Below are positions 517-63,465 of a stretch of DNA of 64,000 nucleotides, in pieces (the stretch's first letter is position 1; every line of letters starts with the position of its first letter). Where the stretch lies: NCBI GenBank assembly GCA_036439915.1, contig GCA_036439915.1_3065.1; one strand, given 5' to 3'. This DNA comes from a phage. The translations under genes and the position numbers were made by a program. Below the pieces are notes generated by a model, which saw only the letters and a program-made list of their open reading frames with translations, was not told the origin of the DNA and did not search any database.

Positions 517-594
517 AGTTATCTCTCACTTGTTAAAAAGATATTTTATACTCCACAGGACCATTATACTCTGGTCCCAAGAGTTTGTAAACTA

Positions 595-1134
595 TTAATT
601 CAAAATAGCTACCACTGCACTACGAGGTACTACGCTAAAATCACCTGCATGAACAACGTTCAGAAGTTCAACACCATCTTCAATCCATTGGTCTGTTACC
701 CAACCACAAACCGAAATAAATGGGGTCTTGATAGCTACCGCATGAGTTAGAAGGTCAGTAGGATCGCATTCTTGAAAGAGGATGAACTCTGCTTCAAAAA
801 CTATAGTTTTAATTACTTCATCATTATCTAAACGGCGTACTCGAATCACGTAAGCTTTATTCTTATCATACCAGTTACTTTTTGAAAAGCTTTTAACCAC
901 AAACTCGCCTTCACCAAAAGCATTAGTCAACGCTTTATAACCCAAATTTAGTTCAGTAGTTTTAATTTCAGTTTCAACCAGTTTGTAGGTTTTGCCGATT
1001 TCAATAGCGGTAGTCATAGTAGGTTCCTTAATTTCCAGTGGTTTAACAGGGCATACATAAGTGCTTACAACATCAAAATCAATCAGTTTAGCTACCGGAT
1101 TTGGTATGTATTCAGGATTATAATTAAATTTCAT
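595..1134 (-). CDS. hypothetical protein, paralog of 19..516
   Basis: 179-aa ORF with the same C-terminal motif as 19..516; T4-like codon usage. Confidence 0.5.
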   Translation of the reverse strand: MKFNYNPEYIPNPVAKLIDFDVVSTYVCPVKPLEIKEPTMTTAIEIGKTYKLVETEIKTTELNLGYKALTNAFGEGEFVVKSFSKSNWYDKNKAYVIRVRRLDNDEVIKTIVFEAEFILFQECDPTDLLTHAVAIKTPFISVCGWVTDQWIEDGVELLNVVHAGDFSVVPRSAVVAILN

Positions 1135-1136
1135 AA

Positions 1137-1676
1137 TTATCTCATTTCAATAAAATCTACAAGTTCAGTATGGGATTTACGGAACATTACTTGATGCCCA
1201 CCAATGATAACTTGGTCATCTGGTACTTCGTATACAGCGAGATAAAATCCTTTAGAAGATAATTCTTCCCGCTCTTCTCGTGTGAACCATCTCATCATAT
1301 CATATTCGCTAGCGAAAGCAAAATGATAAAGAGCTATAAACCATCCTGGAATATGATATTCTACTCCAACATAATCTTTCTTGAACTTAGTATTAATTAC
1401 TATATTAGCGTTTTTAACTAATAGTTTATCTTCGTGTGGTAAAGGAATTCTTTTATTATTATCGCTATGATGCATAAAATTAGGTCTGTCATAACCTACG
1501 TGTAATAGCCACTCTTCGCTCCATGAATCTATTATACTCCTGTACGGCGTTATTTGAACACAAAGATTTCGACGTATTGTTATAGCATCTTCATAATCAA
1601 GAATACTAAACGATGATTCAACACGATAAATTTTCATTTTATTATCCTCAGTAGCTATGGTGTTATAATACCACAA
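1137..1676 (-). CDS. hypothetical protein
   Basis: 179-aa ORF tightly packed between neighbours, start 3 nt after downstream gene stop. Confidence 0.5.
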   Translation of the reverse strand: MWYYNTIATEDNKMKIYRVESSFSILDYEDAITIRRNLCVQITPYRSIIDSWSEEWLLHVGYDRPNFMHHSDNNKRIPLPHEDKLLVKNANIVINTKFKKDYVGVEYHIPGWFIALYHFAFASEYDMMRWFTREEREELSSKGFYLAVYEVPDDQVIIGGHQVMFRKSHTELVDFIEMR

Positions 1677-1700: not shown

Positions 1701-2384
1701 TTATCGTTTTGTTGGAAGAGATAGAGGATCGCACTCTTCCTCTGATGGAGCGTCTTCAAAACCCATAGCATACCGCAAAGCATACTTCATCATCAGGATG
1801 TCTTTCGCACAGTCATGAATGGAATCATGTGCAACAAATCCATCTAAAGTTCCCTTTGGAAGAGGACATGTGGTCATATCACGAACAAGCAGAAGTGCTT
1901 CAATTCTGGTACGAATATCACGCTGATTCCAGAATTTACATGGTTCTAACTTAAATGTGTCAAGTTCATTCTCAGAAACGCCATTAAAACGTTGAATATC
2001 ACGAATGAGATCGACTAAAATTGGAAAATCAAACGACATTCCACGGCACCAACCCTGAGATTTCCAAGGATCGATATTATGCGCATTGATGTAATCATTG
2101 AATTTTGCAATACCATCAATAGTGCTTACATCTTCATCTGACGGTGCAATATTTTTTCGAGCTTCAGGGGATTGATTCTTCCACCATTCGATAGTGCTTT
2201 TAGTAAAAAGACGATGTCCTTTTTGGCTTTTTAAATCAAATTTGATTTTAATGCCACGTGAAACTAATTCATCGAATGTTTCAACGACTTCTGGATTAGG
2301 GTCAAAAGCAATTACAGCTAAATCAATAACAGCTGCCTTTTCGCCGCTTCCCATTGTTTCAAAATCTATAATAAAATCAAACAT
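1701..2384 (-). CDS. dexA: exonuclease A (DEDD 3'-5' exonuclease)
   Basis: 227 aa, N-terminal FDFIIDFETMG exo motif, same length as T4 DexA, located next to dda. Confidence 0.8.
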   Translation of the reverse strand: MFDFIIDFETMGSGEKAAVIDLAVIAFDPNPEVVETFDELVSRGIKIKFDLKSQKGHRLFTKSTIEWWKNQSPEARKNIAPSDEDVSTIDGIAKFNDYINAHNIDPWKSQGWCRGMSFDFPILVDLIRDIQRFNGVSENELDTFKLEPCKFWNQRDIRTRIEALLLVRDMTTCPLPKGTLDGFVAHDSIHDCAKDILMMKYALRYAMGFEDAPSEEECDPLSLPTKR

Positions 2385-2626
2385 TAAATTTTCCTTGCTA
2401 AATCGCGAATTTGACCTACAGTATAGTCTTGAATATAAACTTTATTAATAGGCTCATCAATAAATTTTGCCATAGATTCAATGTCTTTTTGTATCTCTTC
2501 AAGACTGTATACTATCTTTGAAGCTTTTTCGCGAATAGTAATATTTTCAGGACCCGGATTTTCTTCAATGACAGCTTTAACATTTGCCATAAGAGATTTA
2601 AACTGATACCAACTTAATTCAATCAT
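2384..2626 (-). CDS. hypothetical small protein (dexA.1-like position)
   Basis: 80-aa ORF, start overlaps dexA stop. Confidence 0.45.
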   Translation of the reverse strand: MIELSWYQFKSLMANVKAVIEENPGPENITIREKASKIVYSLEEIQKDIESMAKFIDEPINKVYIQDYTVGQIRDLARKI

Positions 2627-2879
2627 TAATAATCGCCTTATAAAGATGGCTAATTTCGCCTAAAACATAATCACTGATTGTAACAGTTTTCACTTCACCA
2701 CAAAAGAATTCTAACGCAATTAAATCTCGTTCAATTTCTTCTAATTGAAGCCTCAACTTACTAGATTCAATTTTTACATTTCTACGATTTTTACTATAAG
2801 CTATTTCATAAATTTCGCTCACTTTATCTTGAAGCAGATAAAACTGATCTTTAGTTATTTCCACGAATAGCTTCCTCAA
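2619..2879 (-). CDS. hypothetical small protein
   Basis: 86-aa ORF in tightly packed early region. Confidence 0.45.
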   Translation of the reverse strand: MRKLFVEITKDQFYLLQDKVSEIYEIAYSKNRRNVKIESSKLRLQLEEIERDLIALEFFCGEVKTVTISDYVLGEISHLYKAIIND

Positions 2880-3111
2880 ATTTAATTAGTAATTTACAGA
2901 CACTTTCATCTAGTGTAATTACCGTATCTGTATTACTGTGATATGATTGTTTTTCAATTCGTTTAATTGCTAATATAGTATCACTTATAAGATAAAGCTT
3001 ATGAAGGAGCTCAGCTCCTGTTACCATAACATCGAGATTATCTTGCTTATTAGTATGCTTCCTTATACCATCTATTAGACGATTTAAATATTTTGAATTG
3101 ATGTTAATCAT
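2851..3111 (-). CDS. hypothetical small protein
   Basis: 86-aa ORF immediately upstream of dda. Confidence 0.45.
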   Translation of the reverse strand: MININSKYLNRLIDGIRKHTNKQDNLDVMVTGAELLHKLYLISDTILAIKRIEKQSYHSNTDTVITLDESVCKLLIKFEEAIRGNN

Positions 3112-3117
3112 ATAGCC

Positions 3118-4437
3118 TCACACATAAAACACATCATAACGACCACGTGTTACACCAACGTAAAGAAGTTGTTGAGCTAATTCAGCATCTGCATAATGAA
3201 TACAAGGCGTATAAATGAAAGCACGGTCTACAGACATACCCTGAGCTTTATGGAATGTTGATGCAGGAAGTGCTTTCACTTTACTGAACTGTGATTTAGC
3301 ATCCCAAAAATCACTCCATGGAGCTTTTCCGCCTTTGTTCCAATTTTTATAAGTTTCTGCCGTTTTACCTAAAAATAGGTTAAACTTATATAGCTCTTCA
3401 TCAGATGAAATTATTTTAATCTTTTCACGATAATATTCATCATCGCCGTAAGTTTCTACTGTTAAGTCCCAATGACGAATTAGATATTCTCCAGGAACAC
3501 CACGAGCTTTAACAAATGTTGATGTATACTCTGCTTCTATAATACGAACTAATTGTCCATTATTAAAAATAATTTCTGATACAGGCTTTCCATCAATTTT
3601 ATATGTTTTAATTAATGGTTCCTGCATTACAATAATTTCACCAACAATAAAATCTTTATCAGTTTCAAAAATCTTTTTACGAATAATGCTATTTAACTTG
3701 TCAACAGATTTATTCGTAAATGCCATTACGCGATTTTCAAACAAATCATCTAGTGATTTGACGATTGAAAAATAATTTACCATAAAATCGCGTAAAGCGG
3801 TATCACCAGTAAATCCACGTACTCCATGCCCGTCAACAACTTTATCATAAATCCACTTACCGTTGCGAACATCAGTAGCTACATCAATAATAGGAGCATT
3901 ACTGCGTTTAACTTCAGTGAGTTCACACTGATAAAAATCTTTGTGTGTAAAAAATGGACTGATATAAGCAGTGTTTTCTCCTGGGTCAACAGGTCTAATT
4001 TGCTTATTATCACCTATTCCAATTATAGTACACCAAGGTGGAATAGTTGAAAGCAGAATTTTAAATAGCTTTCTATCATACATTGACACTTCGTCGCAGA
4101 TTAATACCCTGCATTTAGCTAAATCTGGTACTTCCTTCTGTTCAAAAAGAACGTTTTCTTCATATGTTACTGGGTTAATTTTAAGAATACTGTGAATAGT
4201 ACTCGCTTCTTTCCCCGACAGTTTTGAAAGAATCTTTTTAGCTGCATGTGTAGGAGCTGCCAAAATGATACCAGTTTCGCCCGTAGATATTAAAGCTTCA
4301 ATGATGAACTTAGTAAGAGTAGTCTTACCAGTACCAGCAGGTCCATTAATAGTTACATGATGTTTCTTTTCTTTAATAGCCCTCATAACGATGTTAAAGG
4401 CATTTTTCTGACCTTCGGTCAAATCATCAAATGTCAT
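3118..4437 (-). CDS. dda: Dda DNA helicase (SF1)
   Basis: 439 aa, Walker A GPAGTGKTT, same length as T4 Dda, synteny. Confidence 0.9.
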   Translation of the reverse strand: MTFDDLTEGQKNAFNIVMRAIKEKKHHVTINGPAGTGKTTLTKFIIEALISTGETGIILAAPTHAAKKILSKLSGKEASTIHSILKINPVTYEENVLFEQKEVPDLAKCRVLICDEVSMYDRKLFKILLSTIPPWCTIIGIGDNKQIRPVDPGENTAYISPFFTHKDFYQCELTEVKRSNAPIIDVATDVRNGKWIYDKVVDGHGVRGFTGDTALRDFMVNYFSIVKSLDDLFENRVMAFTNKSVDKLNSIIRKKIFETDKDFIVGEIIVMQEPLIKTYKIDGKPVSEIIFNNGQLVRIIEAEYTSTFVKARGVPGEYLIRHWDLTVETYGDDEYYREKIKIISSDEELYKFNLFLGKTAETYKNWNKGGKAPWSDFWDAKSQFSKVKALPASTFHKAQGMSVDRAFIYTPCIHYADAELAQQLLYVGVTRGRYDVFYV

Positions 4438-4746: not shown

Positions 4747-5493
4747 TTATCCTCGGATAAGTTTAAAAATTGAACAATTTAGCGGGTATCCTCTTTTCAG
4801 TTTAAGTTTATCAATAAAAGACAAGTTTTGATACCGCTCTACACCTTGAATAATTTTATCACACATATCATATTGCATTTCTGCTTCTGACAACTTTTTC
4901 ACAATTTTCCAATCCGAGCCTTTAAGAAGAACGTTCAGTTTAACAACTTCAGCGCCTTCTGCTATGCGAGAACCATCAATACGAGCTTTAAGTGCTATAA
5001 TCGTTAGCTTAATGTCAGAGGTCTGTTTTGATTTAGAAAGCTGAGAAATGTGTTCAATTCGATTTTCACGTTTTTTCTGTATAGCTTTAATTTGATTATA
5101 AGTCTTTTTGATTTTAGCCCATTTCTTTTCATCTAAATTTAGTTTATGAACTTTTTTCGCAGATGAACGGCCAATTCGCAAAGCAAATAAATCACGCTTT
5201 TCAATCAACTCTTCTAAAGTATAATCAGAACGAAATGTATTATACTTTTTCTTTACTGCAATAACATTCCCTTTAATGTATCCAATGTTATTATCAAAAC
5301 GTTCTAATGATAATTTCTCTCCTTCAATACGATTATCAAAAGGTTCTCCTGAATAGGCACAAACTTTTTGATCTAAAATGTTCTTAATGTAATTGAAGTC
5401 TAAGTTAAAATCTTTAGAACGTCTTTTTGCAGATGCCTGAGTGTGCTCTAAACGACGTTTAATTTTACGAATTTGATTATTAGACAATTTCAT
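4747..5493 (-). CDS. srd: Srd-like protein (anti-sigma/sigma-like), assigned by position
   Basis: 248 aa between dda.1 and modA as in T4; preceded by early promoter. Confidence 0.5.
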   Translation of the reverse strand: MKLSNNQIRKIKRRLEHTQASAKRRSKDFNLDFNYIKNILDQKVCAYSGEPFDNRIEGEKLSLERFDNNIGYIKGNVIAVKKKYNTFRSDYTLEELIEKRDLFALRIGRSSAKKVHKLNLDEKKWAKIKKTYNQIKAIQKKRENRIEHISQLSKSKQTSDIKLTIIALKARIDGSRIAEGAEVVKLNVLLKGSDWKIVKKLSEAEMQYDMCDKIIQGVERYQNLSFIDKLKLKRGYPLNCSIFKLIRG

Positions 5494-5528
5494 ATTTTTC
5501 TCACATCTTACGGACGATTGACTACTAT

Positions 5529-5558
5529 ACTATAACATTTTTACCTTAGCTTGTAAAC
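5529..5558 (-). promoter_or_regulatory. sigma70-type early promoter (GTTTAC -35, 18 bp, TATAGT -10)
   Basis: minus-strand GTTTAC...TATAGT read directly; upstream of srd. Confidence 0.6.
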
Positions 5559-5615
5559 AACTTTATGTAAAAATGCTTTAAAACTTTCGTGGTATAATGA
5601 ATCTAAGTCCTTCCA

Positions 5616-6218
5616 TTATAGATTAAATCTTTCAAAATCAAGAGTATAGATAGTGTATGTTGAATACTTTTTATACTCATATCTATCTGCAATTCTAAAT
5701 ACACTTCCAGCTGGTATCATTACTTCTTGTTCATCTGAAACTAATTCCATATTACGATAACGATGACTATCCGGAAACTTAAAGTTTGGATTGTATTCTT
5801 TACAGCGTAGAGCTTTTATAGCATACTCCTGGAAATTGAATACCATAGGAGCTTTGAATTCAAAAATAACCTGTGTGTTATACTCTAAACCGGAAGCAAA
5901 ATGTAGAGCTATATTTTTATCATATGAAGCTGATACTACTTTATCAAATGTAATAATATCAATTCCTTGATTTAACACTTGCTTAGTCTCGACTGGAACA
6001 CCTCTCCAAAGAGGTTTATCGTTTGGTTCCAAACGAGATTTGATTATTTCATTTAACCAAGTATGGTCATCTGGTTTGTTGGTAATACAATGAATTAAAA
6101 GTTCAATTTCAGATAAATTAAACCCTTCAGAAAGTAATTCTTCACGAATAGAAGCACGCACCGATGCATCCATTGATTTTATTTTAAAATCTTTTAGTTG
6201 CATTACTGAGTATTTCAT
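5616..6218 (-). CDS. modA: ADP-ribosyltransferase ModA
   Basis: 200 aa, R (LWRGV), S-x-S and EQE-type ART motifs; same size as T4 ModA; adjacent paralog. Confidence 0.7.
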   Translation of the reverse strand: MKYSVMQLKDFKIKSMDASVRASIREELLSEGFNLSEIELLIHCITNKPDDHTWLNEIIKSRLEPNDKPLWRGVPVETKQVLNQGIDIITFDKVVSASYDKNIALHFASGLEYNTQVIFEFKAPMVFNFQEYAIKALRCKEYNPNFKFPDSHRYRNMELVSDEQEVMIPAGSVFRIADRYEYKKYSTYTIYTLDFERFNL

Positions 6219-11275: not shown

Positions 11276-11440
11276 TTACTCTTCTTTTTCTTTAGATTCC
11301 TCTTTTTTCTTTTTAGGAATCTGTTCAGGACCTTTATTTACTACAGCACCTGACGTTGTTCCAGTAGAGATATTTTCAGGATTACCACCTGAATCTCCAG
11401 CAACCATATCTTCTTTAATAAATTCTTTATATGTTTTCAT
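11276..11440 (-). CDS. small acidic peptide with capsid-targeting-like N-terminus (61.1 position)
   Basis: about 54 codons, MKTYKEFIKEDMVAGDSGGNPEN...; coordinates approximate (+/-1). Confidence 0.4.
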   Translation of the reverse strand: MKTYKEFIKEDMVAGDSGGNPENISTGTTSGAVVNKGPEQIPKKKKEESKEKEE

Positions 11441-55720: not shown

Positions 55721-56194
55721 TTATTTGAATGATTTGACGTACTGAATAGAACCTTTACTATTCACAAAGGCAATTTTACCATTTTTATTATACATGGTAG
55801 CAGTACGTTGATAACCATAAGTTTGTTTACCAGATTGATAACCAACTAATGCGAAATTATCTTCGCCCATTTTATTCTGTTTAGCGCGAATGCGTTCATG
55901 ACCATGTGCCATAAGAACCTTAGCATCACCAGTTGCAATGGATCGACGAGTTTTTTCATCTTCGACTGTATTAACAAAGTCGTCAAATGAATCAAATTTA
56001 GCGTGAGATTTATTATACAGTTTTCCATCTACTGCATAATTATATCCCTGTACATCCATTTCAACTTCTGTACCATCATCCAATACAGCAGTAATTTTTT
56101 GACCTTTTTTAAATTTCAAAAGATCAGTAAAAGATTCAGCAATAATTTGAGAATTAATAGCTGCTTCAGTGATAAATTCTTGATATGTTTTCAT
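55721..56194 (-). CDS. internal-protein-like protein with capsid targeting sequence
   Basis: 157 aa starting MKTYQEFITEA, the T4 internal-protein CTS consensus. Confidence 0.6.
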   Translation of the reverse strand: MKTYQEFITEAAINSQIIAESFTDLLKFKKGQKITAVLDDGTEVEMDVQGYNYAVDGKLYNKSHAKFDSFDDFVNTVEDEKTRRSIATGDAKVLMAHGHERIRAKQNKMGEDNFALVGYQSGKQTYGYQRTATMYNKNGKIAFVNSKGSIQYVKSFK

Positions 56195-60711: not shown

Positions 60712-60975
60712 TTATTTCATATTATTGAAATATTCTTCTGCGATTTCGTCGTTATCATGGTAAACTTTAGAAGACAGTTTAACATAACCTTCAGCAGTGA
60801 ACATGTTAATCACAACCTTTACAGTATACCACTGACCATCTTCATTACCCATTACTGCATAGGTTTCAAACATCGGATGATCAGGACCGATAACTTTAAT
60901 ATCATTCACCGTACGACCGAAATCTTCTGAAACACATTTCATAAAGAAGTTGAACAGTTCACCGTAATTATCCAT
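60712..60975 (-). CDS. hypothetical protein (e.8 position)
   Basis: 87 aa from Met after promoter leader (ORF-track extension is leader read-through). Confidence 0.5.
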   Translation of the reverse strand: MDNYGELFNFFMKCVSEDFGRTVNDIKVIGPDHPMFETYAVMGNEDGQWYTVKVVINMFTAEGYVKLSSKVYHDNDEIAEEYFNNMK

Positions 60976-61018: not shown

Positions 61019-61048
61019 ATAGTACCATGGAAGGACAAGGATGTAAAC
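61019..61048 (-). promoter_or_regulatory. sigma70-type early promoter with conserved leader
   Basis: GTTTAC, 18 bp, TGGTACTAT. Confidence 0.6.
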
Positions 61049-61182
61049 AGTTTTGTGAAAAAATTTTTAAAAAGTTTTGGGGAATTCTAGGGCAGGGAGG
61101 GGAAATCAAAGGATAGGATAATATATTATAAAGGGTAGAAACTAAATGATGTCTAGAGAGGCCTGGAAAGGCCTAGATACCA

Positions 61183-61212
61183 AAAAGCCCCAACCTTTCG
61201 GCTAGGGCTAAG
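61183..61212 (-). terminator. intrinsic terminator after internal-protein-like gene
   Basis: GCCCTAGCC-GAAAGG-TTGGGGC hairpin plus TTTTTGG; near-duplicate of the hairpin at 61741. Confidence 0.55.
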
Positions 61213-61216
61213 AATG

Positions 61217-61690
61217 TTATTTGATTTGTTTAGCAGACCAAATGCGGTCTTTAATAATTTTTTGGATGTCTTCAACATACTCAAGAGAGTGAGCATGTGG
61301 GTTATCTTTGAAACTATAAGCACGAGCTAGTTTTTGGCCTTCAGTTTTGATTACTAAAAGCTCTTTAAGGATAGCTTCATATTTGGAGATAATTCCTTTA
61401 ACAATATTTTTCTCTTGTGCGACTTTAGGATCTGCTTTAGGAGCAGGTTTACCCGAAGCCTTTGCAAAAGCAGCGCCAGTAGCAACTAAACTTTTCCAGG
61501 CCATACTAACTGCATTTCCCGTAAATCCTTCCGCTTTCATGTCGCGTGCGAACTGAAATCGCGATTCATCAGAAGCATCTTTGTAAGAATATTTACCCGC
61601 TGCAATGGCTGCTTTTGCGACAGCTTGAATTTCGGTGCTAGATGCTTCATTTAACACCGCTTCATTTAAAAATTGAGTATATGATTTCAT
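61217..61690 (-). CDS. internal-protein-like protein with capsid targeting sequence
   Basis: 157 aa starting MKSYTQFLNEA; late promoter box upstream; flanked by two similar terminators. Confidence 0.6.
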   Translation of the reverse strand: MKSYTQFLNEAVLNEASSTEIQAVAKAAIAAGKYSYKDASDESRFQFARDMKAEGFTGNAVSMAWKSLVATGAAFAKASGKPAPKADPKVAQEKNIVKGIISKYEAILKELLVIKTEGQKLARAYSFKDNPHAHSLEYVEDIQKIIKDRIWSAKQIK

Positions 61691-61730
61691 CTTATTTCCT
61701 GTTTTAATTCGTGGATTTAATATACTACTA

Positions 61731-61738
61731 TATTTATA
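61731..61738 (-). promoter_or_regulatory. late promoter box TATAAATA
   Basis: exact TATAAATA on minus strand about 40 nt upstream of the 61690 start codon. Confidence 0.55.
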
Positions 61739-61740
61739 CC

Positions 61741-61772
61741 AAAAAGCCCCAACCTTTCGGTCGGGGCTAAGC
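61741..61772 (-). terminator. intrinsic terminator closing the tRNA-region transcript
   Basis: GCCCCGACC-GAAAGG-TTGGGGC hairpin plus CTTTTTGG. Confidence 0.6.
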
Positions 61773-61774
61773 CT

Positions 61775-62075
61775 TGCGGCAACCTTGTCGGGGTTCCACC
61801 TGCTAAGGCAAGTGTTTGTACGAAACGCCGGGATTCGAACCCGGTTATTAAGCAGTTGACGCTACTCAATATTTTTAAAAGGCCATATCTCGACCATATC
61901 CGAACGTTCCGTCAAAAACGCTACTCGGCTTACGGCAAAGATATTTCCTCGAATCGATAATTCTGTGCGCCGTTTCAGCTGTGATAGTAAAGAGCCAGAA
62001 CACAGTAAAACTGTGGGAGGAAACTATACTCCAGGGAACATCAGTCCGACGACTTACCGGTAGCGACCCGGTTTC
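61775..62075 (-). other. GC-enriched structured non-coding region with tRNA-like T-arm; possible small stable RNA or tRNA remnant
   Basis: no long ORF; CCGGGTTCGAATCCCGG T-arm-like element and several hairpins; no complete cloverleaf found. Confidence 0.3.
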
Positions 62076-62426
62076 TTAGTATTCTTTTAAAGAATCAATA
62101 TATTCACGGCGTTTACGCCACAAATCAATTGCTTCATACGCGGATTCAGCATTTCGAATTAGCCGGCATTTATGTAAAGACTTATGATTTTGATATTGTG
62201 TAGATAACGGAATTTTATCTAAAAGGTCTTTACGATCAAAATATTCGTAACCATCTAAACCAAATGAACGATTTTTGAGAAATTGCCAATGACCATATTC
62301 GTTTTCGACATAAACATAATCTGCATGCTGATAAAGCAAATTAATTACACGTTCAGAAATAACAGTATCATTATGATTAAAATAGAATGTTAAATCATGA
62401 ACTACTAAATAAACATTACCTTTCAT
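62076..62426 (-). CDS. hypothetical protein in tRNA region
   Basis: 116-aa ORF starting 19 nt after tRNA-Arg. Confidence 0.45.
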   Translation of the reverse strand: MKGNVYLVVHDLTFYFNHNDTVISERVINLLYQHADYVYVENEYGHWQFLKNRSFGLDGYEYFDRKDLLDKIPLSTQYQNHKSLHKCRLIRNAESAYEAIDLWRKRREYIDSLKEY

Positions 62427-62444: not shown

Positions 62445-62520
62445 TGGTCGAGGCAGTAGGGATCGAACCTACGACCTAGGACTTAGAAGGTCCTTGCTCT
62501 TCCTTCTGAGCTATGCCCCG
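62445..62520 (-). tRNA. tRNA-Arg (UCU)
   Basis: cloverleaf folded by hand; anticodon loop CUUCUAA; T-loop GGTTCGATCC; CCA encoded. Confidence 0.8.
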
Positions 62521-62524
62521 TAAT

Positions 62525-62600
62525 TGGGGTGACCGATGGGAGTCGAACCCATGACTACGAGAATCACAATCTCGAGTTCTACCAACTGAACTACGGCCAC
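62525..62600 (-). tRNA. tRNA-His (GUG) candidate
   Basis: cloverleaf with anticodon loop TTGTGAT, discriminator C, CCA encoded; no encoded G-1. Confidence 0.6.
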
Positions 62601-62715
62601 ATTAATACCTACTCCAACAATCAAGATGTCTTCACACGAAATTAAGAGAAGAGTGATCAGTTCAACCCCTATAATCGCGTCAAGTAGATATTAATGTGAC
62701 AGTTGTCACAAATTT

Positions 62716-62789
62716 GGCGGACGTGATAGGATTCGAACCTATAACCAATCGCTTAACAGGCGATCGCTCTGCCATTGAGCTACACATCC
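62716..62789 (-). tRNA. tRNA-Asn (GUU) candidate
   Basis: cloverleaf; anticodon stem ATCGC/GCGAT, loop CTGTTAA; T-loop TTCGAAT. Confidence 0.65.
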
Positions 62790-62793
62790 AAAT

Positions 62794-62880
62794 TGGTGGG
62801 GAGTGATGGAGTCGAACCACCCGAGTCGTAATGACAATGAATTTACAGTCCACACCGCTACCTCTACGGGATAACTCCCC
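62794..62880 (-). tRNA. tRNA-Tyr (GUA) candidate, type II with long variable arm
   Basis: 87 nt; acceptor GGGGAGT/ACTCCCC; loop CTGTAAA; variable stem GTC/GAC; D-arm imperfect. Confidence 0.5.
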
Positions 62881-62892
62881 TAATTCATAATT

Positions 62893-62967
62893 TGGTGGCC
62901 CTGGGTGGAATTGAACCACCATCTGGCGATTATGAGTCGCTTGCTTGAACCTTCCAGCTACAGGGCC
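62893..62967 (-). tRNA. tRNA-Ile/Met (CAU)
   Basis: acceptor GGCCCTG/CAGGGCC; anticodon loop CTCATAA. Confidence 0.7.
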
Positions 62968-62968
62968 T

Positions 62969-63044
62969 TGGTGCTGATTGACGGAATCGAACCGCCGACC
63001 TTCTCATTACAAGTGAGTTGCTCTACCTACTGAGCTAAATCAGC
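62969..63044 (-). tRNA. tRNA-Thr (UGU)
   Basis: canonical cloverleaf; anticodon loop CTTGTAA; T-loop TTCGATT. Confidence 0.8.
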
Positions 63045-63049
63045 AAAAC

Positions 63050-63139
63050 TGGCGGAGGTGATAGGATTCGAACCTATGAATCGCCGGAGCGACTGCCGGT
63101 TTTCAAGACCGGTGCATTCAACCACTCTGCCACACCTCC
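63050..63139 (-). tRNA. tRNA-Ser (UGA), type II
   Basis: 90 nt; anticodon stem CCGGT/ACCGG, loop CTTGAAA; long variable arm. Confidence 0.8.
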
Positions 63140-63141
63140 AG

Positions 63142-63215
63142 TCTCCATACAAGGATTTGAACCTTGGACCTCCTGATCCCAAATCAGGCGCTCTACCAAA
63201 CTGAGCTACACGGAG
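63142..63215 (-). tRNA. tRNA-Pro (UGG), CCA not encoded
   Basis: anticodon stem CCTGA/TCAGG, loop TTTGGGA; abuts tRNA-Ser as in the T4 Pro-Ser dimer. Confidence 0.75.
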
Positions 63216-63225
63216 TAAATTAAAT

Positions 63226-63299
<74 letters not shown>

Positions 63300-63304
63300 A
63301 AATT

Positions 63305-63391
63305 TGGTGCGAGAAGTGGGACTCGAACCCGCAAGGAAATCATTCCGCAGCATTTTAAGTGCTGTGCCTTTACCAATTTGACCATTCTCGC
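63305..63391 (-). tRNA. tRNA-Leu (UAA), type II
   Basis: 87 nt; anticodon stem CAGCA/TGCTG, loop CTTAAAA; long variable arm. Confidence 0.8.
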
Positions 63392-63392
63392 G

Positions 63393-63465
63393 CTGGGAAT
63401 AAAGGACTCGAACCTTTGCATCCTGGAATCAAAATCCAGTGCCTTACCAACTTGGCTAATTCCCA
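63393..63465 (-). tRNA. tRNA-Gln (UUG), CCA not encoded
   Basis: acceptor TGGGAAT/ATTCCCA; anticodon loop TTTTGAT; abuts tRNA-Leu as in the T4 Gln-Leu dimer. Confidence 0.75.

What the first reader, a model, noticed from the sequence alone, without database searches (positions are those of the whole stretch)
61183..61772. Second CTS-bearing internal-protein-like gene as an insulated late-promoter cassette
ORF 61217..61690 starts MKSYTQFLNEA (CTS-like). It has an exact TATAAATA late promoter box about 40 nt upstream and is bracketed by two near-identical terminator hairpins (61183..61212 and 61741..61772), forming a self-contained cassette between the e.8-like gene and the tRNA cluster. The duplicated flanking hairpins could mark a recombination-mobilised cassette.
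Basis: seen in the sequence. Interest (0 to 1): 0.5.

Follow-up and report, generated by a model that had tools for sequence, protein, structure and literature searches.

The report
Terminator-flanked late gene for a probable phage internal protein
A T4-like phage carries a small late gene, boxed in by two copies of the same terminator hairpin, whose product looks like a protein packed into the phage head and injected with the DNA; relatives such as T4 have lost or swapped exactly this box at the hairpins, so it is a plausible but untested new anti-defence candidate of a known kind.

Summary
The window is a Tequatrovirus close to RB51, RB32 and wV7. ORF 61690..61217 (-), 157 aa, is the "hypothetical" RB32ORF132c family (PHROG 2280).

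It sits between the stable-RNA gene rnaC and e.8. An exact TATAAATA box lies 40 nt upstream and directly abuts a strong intrinsic terminator. A second copy of that terminator follows the stop codon (36-nt direct repeat, 33/36 identical).

The N-terminus MKSYTQFLNE keeps all four positions shown experimentally to matter in the T4 capsid targeting sequence. The mature protein is basic (pI 9.5), like IPI-III. dN/dS of 0.03-0.15 shows a real gene.

T4, T2, T6, PST and RB9 have an empty site with one hairpin. RB69 differs from PhAPEC2 by the same precise loss. JK1 carries a Dhakavirus-type allele whose left breakpoint lies in the hairpin/promoter junction.

So this is a monocistronic late cassette for a probable, unannotated internal protein. 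It is lost and exchanged in place by recombination at a terminator-late-promoter composite, a late-promoter analogue of PeSL elements. It has not been seen at any other locus. Packaging and function are untested. This is a new member of a known kind, of moderate interest.

The parts
61819..61957 (-). rnaC (species 1 stable RNA), the last gene of the tRNA/rnaD/rnaC unit. It is upstream context and a conserved left homology arm.
   Evidence: Local alignment to the annotated rnaC of RB68. The left flank is 92-98% identical among the Tequatrovirus genomes compared and Mosigvirus PhAPEC2. Rfam has no model for it.
61740..61768 (-). Upstream intrinsic terminator: stem AGCCCCGACC / GGTTGGGGCT, GAAA loop, TTTTT tail. 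It ends the tRNA/rnaC transcripts. T4 has this hairpin as a single copy.
   Evidence: Terminator scan. dG -21.5 kcal/mol, z -3.7. Single copy at the same place in T4. Across 10 variants 93% of cells pair, with 1 compensatory change.
61736..61771 (-). Upstream copy of the 36-nt imperfect direct repeat (hairpin plus T tract plus GGTAT).
   Evidence: 33/36 identical to 61177..61212, and the 3' 25 nt are identical. The RB51 GenBank note reads 'flanked by 34 bp imperfect direct repeat'.
61731..61738 (-). T4-type late promoter box TATAAATA. Its first 3 nt are the last 3 nt of the repeat, and it lies 40 nt before the ATG.
   Evidence: The junction T-tract-(G/A)GTATAAATA is conserved in RB51, JK1, ESCO10 (Dhakavirus) and phiKp_22 (Jiaodavirus); PhAPEC2 has AATAAATA. 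It is the only one of six boxes in the window that abuts a strong hairpin.
61695..61700 (-). Shine-Dalgarno AGGAAA, 4 nt before the ATG.
   Evidence: Read directly from the sequence. The same AGGAAA is present in the homologous cassettes.
61217..61690 (-). Cassette gene, 157 aa: RB32ORF132c family, PHROG 2280. It is a probable internal (head-packaged, injected) protein. The predicted mature form is 142-147 aa, 15.5-16 kDa, pI 9.5, all-helical.
   Evidence: ORF. PHROG 2280, E 2.9e-60. 512 phage records, one copy each. dN/dS 0.03-0.15. pI. AF2 model with mean pLDDT 74 and six helices. No Pfam, PADLOC, PDB or Foldseek relatives.
61646..61690 (-). Codons 1-15, MKSYTQFLNE|AVLNE|A: a capsid-targeting-sequence-like propeptide with two L-x-E gp21-type cleavage motifs (after E10 and E15). 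The second motif arises from a 15-bp imperfect tandem duplication.
   Evidence: Critical positions 4, 7, 8 and 10 are taken from PMC9026906. Alleles in JK1, ESCO10 and PhAPEC2 have a single site.
61181..61209 (-). Downstream intrinsic terminator: stem AGCCCTAGCC / GGTTGGGGCT, GAAA loop, TTTTT tail. The stem starts 7 nt after the stop codon and ends the cassette transcript.
   Evidence: dG -18.3 kcal/mol, z -3.2. The three changes relative to the upstream copy keep pairing through G.U.
61177..61212 (-). Downstream copy of the 36-nt direct repeat.
61019..61047 (-). Early-type promoter (TTTACA-17-TACTAT with TG) serving e.8. It shows that the next unit is separately driven.
   Evidence: Promoter scan. 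The same sequence is conserved in T4 downstream of the single hairpin.
60712..60975 (-). e.8, the downstream neighbour and conserved right homology arm.
   Evidence: PHROG 2678. Alignment to annotated e.8. The right flank is 90-98% identical among the Tequatrovirus and Dhakavirus genomes compared.

Best explanation
This is a self-contained, monocistronic late transcription unit. It encodes a previously unannotated internal protein (Ip) candidate and sits at a third Ip-type locus, between rnaC and e.8.

How it most likely works:

(i) Transcription. Transcripts of the tRNA/rnaD/rnaC unit stop at the upstream hairpin. Immediately after its U-tract, a gp55/gp33-type late promoter (TATAAATA) starts an mRNA of about 0.53 kb. 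That mRNA ends at the second copy of the hairpin, before the early promoter of e.8. This is shown at the sequence level only.

(ii) Protein. The product carries a capsid targeting sequence (MKSYTQFLNE) that takes it into the scaffolding core of the prohead. The prohead protease gp21 removes 10 or 15 residues after L-N-E. The basic 15.5-16 kDa helical protein then stays in the head and is injected with the DNA. This step is inferred. By analogy with Ip1, Ip2, Ip3 and Bas37_0260, its likeliest role is to neutralise an early-acting host defence such as a type IV restriction enzyme. This step is inference by analogy only.

(iii) Evolution. The 36-nt direct repeat formed by the two terminators, plus the adjoining late-promoter box, acts as a recombination substrate. 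Crossing over between the copies deletes exactly the cassette and leaves one chimeric hairpin, as in T4, T2, T6, PST and RB9, and as in RB69 relative to PhAPEC2. Recombination at the same composite or in the conserved flanks exchanges alleles between lineages, as in JK1. The outcomes are shown comparatively; the molecular pathway is inferred.
For: Anatomy:
- Exact late box, Shine-Dalgarno sequence and ORF.
- Two strongest terminator-like sites of the region.
- Only two copies of the hairpin in 64 kb.
- An independent early promoter serves e.8.

Conservation of the design:
- Terminator/T-tract/TATAAATA/CTS-ORF/terminator is found in Tequatrovirus, Dhakavirus and Jiaodavirus. Mosigvirus has AATAAATA.
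- The hairpin sequence in Jiaodavirus is different, so it is the architecture that is kept.

Real gene:
- 512 phage records, one copy each.
- dN/dS 0.03-0.15.

Ip character:
- Y4, F7, L8, E10 match the experimentally critical CTS positions. The N-terminus aligns with T4 ipII/ipIII MKTYQEFIAE.
- Mature pI is 9.5, against 9.0-9.65 for T4 IPI-III.
- One source names the Klebsiella homologue 'Internal head protein'.
- All four characterised CTS proteins are type IV restriction inhibitors (PMC12373910; bioRxiv 10.1101/2025.11.20.689424; PMC9391042).

Recombination:
- T4 differs from the window by a 559-bp indel whose ends lie in the repeat.
- Empty sites with one hairpin occur in PST, T6, T2, RB9 and SHFML-26.
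- RB69 equals PhAPEC2 minus cassette A, with the junction again inside the hairpin.
- The JK1 cassette is 93% identical to Dhakavirus ESCO10 but 78% to the window, while its flanks are 92-96% identical to the window. The switch occurs within the hairpin/TATAAATA segment.
- T4 is known to delete DNA between repeats as short as 2-10 bp (PMC9391042). Promoter-stem-loop composites form excised mini-circles in RB49 and phi1 (PMC2839356).
Against: - No virion proteomics, N-terminal processing data or transcript mapping exist for this gene. The only proteome checked (SH7) was too shallow: it lists no internal protein at all, so it is uninformative.
- A CTS-like N-terminus also occurs on the 61.1-like early ORF next to primase. 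The motif alone therefore does not prove packaging.
- Unlike the classical picture of hypervariable Ips, this protein is strongly conserved, especially its C-terminal half. Known T4 ip genes have early-type promoters with palindromes, not a terminator plus late box.
- The gene was never seen at another locus, so there is no evidence of true mobility.
- With conserved flanks on both sides, ordinary homologous recombination in mixed infections could explain gain and exchange without any role for the hairpins.
- Covariation support for the hairpin is weak statistically (one compensatory pair; 52/500 shuffles reach the observed score).
- The direction of change (ancestral presence with repeated loss, or insertion) is not proven.
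Confidence: 0.62

Rival explanations
1. This is an ordinary conserved late accessory gene that is not packaged. The MK(S/T)Y..F(L/I).E start reflects a shared, efficient translation-initiation region or common ancestry of 5' ends spread by recombination among small T-even genes. The protein would then act inside the infected cell late in infection.
For: The 61.1-like ORF (11276..11440), in an early replication-gene context, has the same kind of N-terminus. The protein is strongly conserved rather than hypervariable. Nearly all databases call it hypothetical. It has no homology to any annotated Ip PHROG.
Against: All four experimentally critical CTS positions are kept across three genera despite dS of about 1-1.9. 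The L-x-E cleavage motif is even duplicated. Late timing, small size and basic pI all fit Ips. In PhAPEC2 and RB69 the neighbouring cassette at the same locus also begins MKTYAEFLTEA.
Confidence: 0.22
2. The two hairpins are similar only because both are terminators derived by a local duplication. They play no special part in the polymorphism. Presence, absence and allele swaps arise by ordinary homologous recombination in the long conserved flanks (rnaC on one side, the e.8 region on the other) during mixed infections.
For: Flanks are 90-98% identical among most of the genomes compared. T-even phages recombine very actively. The right-hand breakpoint of the JK1 swap cannot be resolved because the 3' end of the gene is conserved in all alleles. 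The hairpin is not a dispersed genome-wide element.
Against: Flank recombination can move an existing empty or filled allele but cannot create the empty allele. The empty sites in two genera have junctions exactly within the repeat, leaving a single hairpin with the left flank of copy 1 and the right flank of copy 2. The left breakpoint of the JK1 mosaic maps to the roughly 40-nt hairpin/promoter segment.
Confidence: 0.3
3. The cassette is a genuinely mobile element that inserts at terminators through a dedicated enzyme, for example with help from a neighbouring homing endonuclease such as SegB.
For: T4, PST, T6 and SHFML-26 have segB next to tRNA-Arg and an empty site.
Against: T2 and RB9 are empty without segB. 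Several segB-positive genomes are filled (Pu-Krd-SF2, a48, vB_EcoM_112, PaulHMueller). The cassette encodes only one small helical protein with no nuclease or recombinase signature. The gene is never found at a second locus.
Confidence: 0.03

Closest known systems
T4-type internal proteins (IPI, IPII, IPIII; Ip5/IpV-VI of T6/PST; Bas37_0260)
   Same: It has an N-terminal capsid-targeting-sequence pattern with the critical residues 4, 7, 8 and 10, and an L/I-x-E gp21 site. It is a small, basic, non-essential-looking accessory protein. Its presence varies among T-even phages. The expected fate is packaging, processing and injection.
   Different: It lies at a third locus (rnaC-e.8), not the ipI or ipII/ipIII loci. 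It has no sequence similarity to any annotated Ip beyond the leader. It is driven by a late box abutting a terminator, rather than the early-type promoter with palindrome seen upstream of T4 ipI/II/III and PST ipV/VI. It is much more conserved (dN/dS about 0.1). Packaging is untested.
PeSL / PmSL elements (promoter-early or promoter-middle stem-loops; Arbiol et al. 2010 PMC2839356; Comeau et al. 2014 PMC4122927)
   Same: It is a composite of a stem-loop/terminator placed directly upstream of a promoter, Shine-Dalgarno sequence and ATG. It flanks a single small accessory ORF on both sides. Related genomes carry one element where the ORF is missing. Allele exchange breakpoints lie inside the element.
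   Different: The promoter is the T4 late type (TATAAATA), a class not described for these elements in the two papers read. The downstream copy lacks the promoter half. The element is not dispersed: it occurs only twice in 64 kb, whereas PeSLs occur many times per genome. Mini-circles have not been looked for.
RB32ORF132c / RB51ORF140 / PHROG 2280 (the gene's own family)
   Same: The window protein is 97-100% identical to these. The RB51 record already notes the '34 bp imperfect direct repeat'.
   Different: These records give no function. The Ip reading, the late-promoter/terminator composite, the empty-site comparison and the mosaic breakpoints are not in the annotations or in the papers searched.
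Short-repeat (microhomology) deletions in T4 (rII, genes 16-18, Srikant et al. 2022 PMC9391042)
   Same: The interval between two direct repeats is lost and one repeat copy remains. Accessory anti-defence genes, including ipIII, are typical casualties.
   Different: Here the repeat is much longer (36 nt, 25 of them identical) and is itself a functional terminator, so the deletion leaves transcription control intact.

Membership tests
T4-type internal protein (CTS-bearing Ip) | N-terminal capsid targeting sequence of about 10 residues. Residues 4 and 7 are needed for targeting; residues 8 and 10 (L/I-x-E) are needed for gp21 processing. | tested here: met
   MKSYTQFLNE has Y4, F7, L8 and E10, against MKTYQEFIAE in IPII/IPIII. 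The critical positions are taken from PMC9026906. The pattern is conserved in homologues from other genera.
T4-type internal protein (CTS-bearing Ip) | Synthesis at the time of prohead assembly | tested here: met
   Exact TATAAATA 40 nt upstream, conserved in four genera. This is sequence-level evidence only; no transcript data were available.
T4-type internal protein (CTS-bearing Ip) | Small basic mature protein | tested here: met
   15.5-16 kDa and pI 9.5, against pI 9.0-9.65 for T4 IPI*, IPII* and IPIII*.
T4-type internal protein (CTS-bearing Ip) | Physical presence in the head, cleavage by gp21, injection with the DNA | not testable with these tools
   No proteomic data were found. The SH7 virion proteome lists 13 structural proteins plus an ADP-ribosylase and no Ip at all, so it is uninformative.
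T4-type internal protein (CTS-bearing Ip) | Membership of an annotated Ip sequence family or location in one of the two described ip loci | tested here: not met
   It belongs to PHROG 2280 'unknown function', not to PHROG 4363, 7857, 5341 or 3155. The locus is rnaC-e.8. Known Ips are not homologous to one another either, so this does not exclude the functional class.
PeSL/PmSL recombination cassettes | Stem-loop directly upstream of a promoter + SD + ATG, flanking a variable ORF | tested here: met
   Hairpin, T-tract, TATAAATA, AGGAAA and ATG lie within 80 nt. The ORF is flanked on both sides by the stem-loop.
PeSL/PmSL recombination cassettes | Promoter of early (sigma-70-like) or middle (Mot box) type | tested here: not met
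   The promoter half is the late box TATAAATA. No -35/-10 pair was reported at the junction.
PeSL/PmSL recombination cassettes | Many dispersed copies concentrated in hyperplastic regions | tested here: not met
   Only the two flanking copies occur in 64 kb, allowing up to 3 mismatches. None of the other five TATAAATA boxes abuts a strong hairpin.
PeSL/PmSL recombination cassettes | Related genomes show a single element at the empty site and breakpoints inside the element | tested here: met
   T4, PST, T2, T6, RB9 and SHFML-26, and RB69 versus PhAPEC2. JK1 mosaic.
PeSL/PmSL recombination cassettes | Excised mini-circles detectable in infected cells | not testable with these tools
   This needs inverse PCR on infected cultures.
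Intrinsic (rho-independent) terminator | G+C-rich stem, short loop, following U-tract | tested here: met
   10-bp stems with 6-7 G-C pairs, GAAA loop, TTTTT tail. dG -21.5 and -18.3 kcal/mol. 93% of pair cells are kept across 10 variants. Termination in vivo was not tested.
T4 late promoter | TATAAATA at -10 on the coding strand, upstream of a late gene | tested here: met
   Exact match at 61738..61731. It is conserved at the same place in other genera. Dependence on gp55/gp33/gp45 is not testable here.

The most novel reading that the evidence does not exclude
Tevenvirinae have a third, overlooked internal-protein locus between the tRNA/rnaC unit and e.8. Its cargo is missing from T4, T2 and T6, which would explain why classical genetics never found it. 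That cargo would be a packaged, injected inhibitor of a host defence not covered by Ip1-3. The terminator-late-promoter composite would be a 'late' counterpart of PeSL elements (a 'PlSL'). It would allow single Ip genes to be excised, stacked in tandem (as in PhAPEC2) and exchanged between genera without disturbing neighbouring transcription.
Probability: 0.3. Interest if true: 0.6.

Novelty: new member of a known kind. Interest (0 to 1): 0.42.

Why it matters
Every CTS-bearing internal protein characterised so far (Ip1, Ip2, Ip3, Bas37_0260) turned out to be a specific inhibitor of a type IV restriction system. Such proteins therefore help determine host range in the T-even phages used for therapy and biocontrol.

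This gene is present in roughly two thirds of sequenced Tequatrovirus genomes. It also occurs in some Mosigvirus, in Dhakavirus and in Klebsiella Jiaodavirus. It is called 'hypothetical' almost everywhere and is absent from the model phages T4, T2 and T6.

If it is packaged, it adds a ready-made candidate to the list of injected counter-defence proteins. The test is simple: knock it out, plate on wild strains, and complement T4.

The flanking terminator/late-promoter repeat is also a clean natural example of how a regulatory composite lets a phage drop or swap one gene precisely. That makes it a convenient neutral insertion site and CTS delivery cassette for engineering.

Tried and rejected
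- Function by homology. Pfam gave only sub-threshold noise. PADLOC gave nothing. A PDB profile search gave one spurious low-complexity hit with no passing stretch. The AF2 model is all-helical, and Foldseek against PDB and BFVD returned only its own family. An exhaustive HMMER search of 1.84 billion representatives returned 13 small phage proteins and no remote relatives.
- Homology to the window's other Ip (55721..56194), or to cassette B of PhAPEC2, beyond the leader: none by BLASTP. PHROG 2280 nevertheless lumps cassettes A and B.
- Hairpin as a dispersed repeat element: rejected, since there are only two copies.
- Terminator plus late box as a recurrent design in the window: rejected, since this is the only case among six boxes.
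- Link between the empty site and the homing endonuclease segB: suggested by four genomes but rejected, because there are empty genomes without segB and filled genomes with segB.
- An exact-pattern scan of IMG/VR for the composite gave only 3 loci and was not pursued.
- Proteomic support: the SH7 paper is too shallow. A search for the AR1 paper failed on syntax.
- Repoila et al. 1994 and Bair et al. 2007 are not held. I therefore could not check whether this ORF is among the '>30 IP variants' cited from Comeau et al. 2007.
- Rfam has no rnaC/rnaD family.
- Exact counts of empty versus filled sites could not be obtained, because the search tool joins the two halves in some filled genomes. Only a rough estimate is given.
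Full report
**What the window is**

The 1.4 kb around the finding matches 773 phage records, mostly from E. coli, Shigella and Yersinia hosts. The best matches are 97-98% identical: EC121, wV7, RB51 and RB68. All genes in the region run on the minus strand.

The order from high to low coordinates is as follows:
- eleven tRNA genes (62445..63465);
- a 116-aa ORF (62076..62426, RB69ORF150c-like);
- rnaD (about 61965..62078);
- rnaC (61819..61957);
- the finding;
- e.8 (60712..60975).

**Check of the observation**

- The ORF 61690..61217 (-) encodes 157 aa and begins MKSYTQFLNEA.
- TATAAATA lies on the coding strand at 61738..61731, 40 nt before the ATG. An AGGAAA Shine-Dalgarno sequence lies at 61700..61695.
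- The two best terminator-like sites in 58-64 kb are 61768..61745 and 61209..61186 (-). Each has a 10-bp stem, a GAAA loop and a TTTTT tail. Predicted dG is -21.5 and -18.3 kcal/mol.

The two hairpins are copies of one sequence.
- The 36-nt direct repeat (61771..61736 and 61212..61177) is 33/36 identical, and the 3' 25 nt are identical.
- The motif occurs only twice in the window and never in shuffles.
- The three differences lie in the 5' arm (CGA versus TAG) and all keep pairing through G.U.
- Across ten hairpin variants from eleven phages, 93% of pair cells are standard pairs, and one pair shows a compensatory C-G to G-C change. Statistically this covariation is weak.

The octamer TATAAATA is not rare by chance: there are 6 in the window against 11.3 expected. 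However, all six are on the coding strand and five precede an ATG. This one is also conserved in other genera (see the section on conserved architecture).

**What the gene is**

The protein is the RB32ORF132c/RB51ORF140 family, PHROG 2280 'unknown function' (E 2.9e-60).
- tblastn finds it in 512 phage records, always once per record. Of these, 387 are at least 80% identical, 98 are 60-80% identical and 27 are below 60%.
- Carriers include Tequatrovirus, some Mosigvirus, Dhakavirus ESCO10 and Klebsiella Jiaodavirus.
- The annotation was 'hypothetical' (or 'protein of unknown function') in nearly all sampled rows. Among cluster members, a single UniRef entry for a Klebsiella phage calls it 'Internal head protein'.
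- It is a real gene under purifying selection. Pairwise dN/dS is 0.03-0.15, and the C-terminal half is almost invariant across three genera.
- It has no relatives with known function. Pfam, PADLOC, PDB sequence search and an exhaustive profile search of 1.84 billion proteins (13 hits, all small phage proteins) gave nothing informative.
- The AlphaFold model (mean pLDDT 74) is six helices in two parts joined by a K/P-rich linker. It has no significant Foldseek match outside its own family.

**Is it an internal protein?**

Mullaney and Black showed that in the 10-residue CTS of IPIII (MKTYQEFIAE), residues 4 and 7 govern targeting and residues 8 and 10 govern gp21 processing. This comes from the review PMC9026906.
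- The ORF has Y4, F7, L8 and E10. The same pattern is kept in the homologues from other genera.
- In the window-type allele, a 15-bp imperfect tandem duplication provides a second L-N-E site, after E15.
- The predicted mature protein is 15.5-16 kDa with pI 9.5, within the range of T4 IPI*, IPII* and IPIII* (pI 9.0-9.65).
- Late timing fits prohead assembly.

This is good circumstantial evidence, but packaging itself is untested. There is also a clear warning in the window. The 54-aa 61.1-like ORF next to the primase gene also starts MKTYKEFIKE, so the motif alone is not proof.

The first CTS gene of the window (55721..56194) is an annotated Ip family (PHROG 3155). It is unrelated to the finding beyond the leader.

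**The architecture is conserved**

The order terminator, T-tract, (G/A)GTATAAATA, Shine-Dalgarno, CTS-ORF, terminator is found in:
- RB51, G4507, JK1 and AdolfPortmann (Tequatrovirus);
- ESCO10 (Dhakavirus);
- phiKp_22 (Jiaodavirus), where the hairpins have a different sequence.

PhAPEC2 (Mosigvirus) has AATAAATA instead.

By contrast, T4 ipI, ipII and ipIII and PST ipV/ipVI are preceded by early-type promoters (GTTTACA...TAnTAT) with embedded palindromes. This is how Arbiol et al. describe the IP-associated elements (PMC2839356). Of the six late boxes in the window, only this one abuts a strong hairpin. Downstream, e.8 has its own early-type promoter.

**The hairpins mark recombination end points**

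T4 differs from the window by a 559-bp indel. T4 has one hairpin carrying the left flank of the upstream copy and the right flank of the downstream copy. The same empty site with one hairpin is seen in PST, T6, T2, RB9 and SHFML-26.

In Mosigvirus, PhAPEC2 has two tandem CTS cassettes:
- cassette A, the homologue of the finding;
- cassette B, which is RB69ORF149c-like, begins MKTYAEFLTEA and also falls in PHROG 2280.

Together these are separated by three terminators. RB69 is exactly PhAPEC2 minus cassette A, with the junction again inside the hairpin. That makes two precise indels in two genera.

There is also evidence of exchange. The cassette of Tequatrovirus JK1 is 93% identical to that of Dhakavirus ESCO10 but only 78% identical to the window. 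Its flanks, however, are 92-96% identical to the window. In a 40-column scan, the switch from window-like to ESCO10-like sequence happens within the hairpin/TATAAATA segment. The right-hand breakpoint cannot be resolved, because the 3' end of the gene is conserved in all alleles.

A junction-specific query found 562 records with the site. At most 140 have an uninterrupted empty site. A sample suggests that about 60% of those 140 are truly empty; the rest are filled sites that the search tool joined. Since 387 records carry the protein at 80% identity or more, roughly two thirds of T4-type genomes are filled and about 15% are empty. These figures are rough.

**Mechanism**

- T4 deletes DNA between repeats as short as 2-10 bp within a few rounds of laboratory evolution, and ipIII is a typical casualty (PMC9391042).
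- In RB49 and phi1, promoter-stem-loop composites (PeSLs) flanking single ORFs recombine to give excised mini-circles and leave one element behind (PMC2839356). Middle-promoter versions (PmSLs) are also described (PMC4122927).
- A 36-nt repeat with 25 identical bases is a better substrate than microhomology.
- Because each copy is a complete terminator, the deletion leaves regulation intact. Such deletions should therefore be nearly neutral wherever the protein is not needed.
- The wide distribution of the gene at one locus across several genera makes ancestral presence with repeated loss the simplest history. This direction is inferred, not shown.

Nothing suggests movement to other loci. The gene was seen once per genome, at the same locus in every genome inspected, with no enzyme in the cassette. 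A suspected link with the homing endonuclease segB did not hold.

**Likely function**

All four characterised CTS-bearing proteins inhibit type IV restriction enzymes:
- Ip1, Ip2 and Ip3 each block a different GmrSD (PMC12373910; PMC9391042);
- Bas37_0260 blocks McrBC (bioRxiv 10.1101/2025.11.20.689424).

By analogy, the best guess is an injected inhibitor of an early-acting, DNA-targeting defence. This is inference only. The strong sequence conservation is unlike the usual picture of fast-diversifying Ips. It could instead point to a conserved target or a more structural role inside the head.

**Comparison with what is known, and novelty**

- The gene family and its flanking repeat are already in GenBank. 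The RB51 note reads 'flanked by 34 bp imperfect direct repeat'.
- Silas et al. state that T4's ip genes lie in two loci and that at least 10 further Ips are reported. Arbiol et al. cite more than 30 variants. I could not read Repoila 1994 or Comeau 2007 to see whether this ORF is among them.
- None of the papers searched mentions this ORF, or this locus as an ip locus.

I therefore rate it a new member of a known kind: a probable Ip at a third locus, bounded by a late-promoter analogue of PeSL elements.
- It fails two PeSL criteria, namely promoter class and dispersed copies, so it should be called PeSL-like rather than a PeSL.
- It meets all sequence-level Ip criteria, but the defining physical one (presence in the head) is untested.

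**Verdict**

- Observation: confirmed.
- Interpretation: supported at the sequence and comparative level, with 'mobilised' limited to in-place loss, gain and exchange.
- Interest: moderate. The kind is known, but the gene is widespread, unannotated and absent from the classical model phages, and it can be tested directly as a counter-defence factor.

Noticed in passing
window 55721..56194 (-): This is the window's other CTS gene (MKTYQEFITEA, 157 aa, PHROG 3155 'internal virion protein'). It lies after denV (order e > denV > ip), whereas T4 has e > ipIII > ipII > denV. Its 5' leader (AAAAATATTTACATTTAAAGGAAAC) is the same as that of T4 ipII, which suggests that Ip genes are swapped at a shared leader.
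   Followed up: partly
window 11276..11440 (-): A 54-aa ORF just upstream of the primase gene (61.1-like, PHROG 1823) starts MKTYKEFIKED. That is a CTS-like N-terminus on a gene in an early replication cluster. Either it is an overlooked packaged peptide, or the motif alone does not predict packaging.
   Followed up: partly
window 61646..61669 (-), codons 8-15 of the cassette gene: An imperfect 15-bp tandem duplication (TTAAATGAAGCGGTG / TTAAATGAAGCATCT) duplicates the L-N-E protease site. Alleles in JK1, ESCO10 and PhAPEC2 have a single site.
   Followed up: partly
L005 (PhAPEC2) 2425..3685; L009 (RB69) 5429..6110: Mosigvirus PhAPEC2 carries two tandem CTS cassettes separated by three terminators. 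The second is RB69ORF149c-like, begins MKTYAEFLTEA and falls in the same PHROG 2280. RB69 keeps only the second, apparently split into ORF148c and ORF149c. The third terminator has a different stem but the same T-tract and right flank as in Tequatrovirus.
   Followed up: partly
L011 (VR7, Gaprivervirus) 1838..2400: The same rnaC-type hairpin is followed by different cargo: a cytidine/deoxycytidylate-deaminase-like ORF and two small ORFs. The site after this terminator therefore accepts unrelated genes.
   Followed up: no
L007 (Klebsiella phage phiKp_22) 2495..3028; proteins P0009, P0010: The Klebsiella and Yersinia homologues share only the leader and the N-terminal domain (about residues 16-80, AGKYSYKD..SDESRFQFARDMK..GF) with the coliphage protein. 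Their C-terminal half is different, which points to domain shuffling within the family.
   Followed up: partly
window 62076..62426 (-) and tRNA cluster 62445..63465: The window has 11 tRNA genes (including His, Asn, Tyr and a CAU-anticodon tRNA) against 8 in T4, and no segB. A 116-aa ORF (RB69ORF150c-like, PHROG 3355) lies between rnaD and tRNA-Arg, beside the tRNA-Arg gene that segB adjoins (on its other side) in T4. segB presence does not track the empty cassette site strictly.
   Followed up: yes
L002 (G4507) 3117..3210; L012 (ESCO10) 2039..2302; L017 (T6) 566..1231: Public annotations around this locus contain evident errors. In G4507 a 'tRNA-Lys' is called over rnaC. In ESCO10, e.8 is labelled 'RNA ligase 2'. 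In T6, segB is labelled 'serine recombinase'.
   Followed up: no
L010 (AdolfPortmann/Bas44) 2375..2936: This phage has the cassette, but a 560-bp stretch without an annotated gene follows it where e.8 normally lies. The locus may carry a further rearrangement.
   Followed up: no
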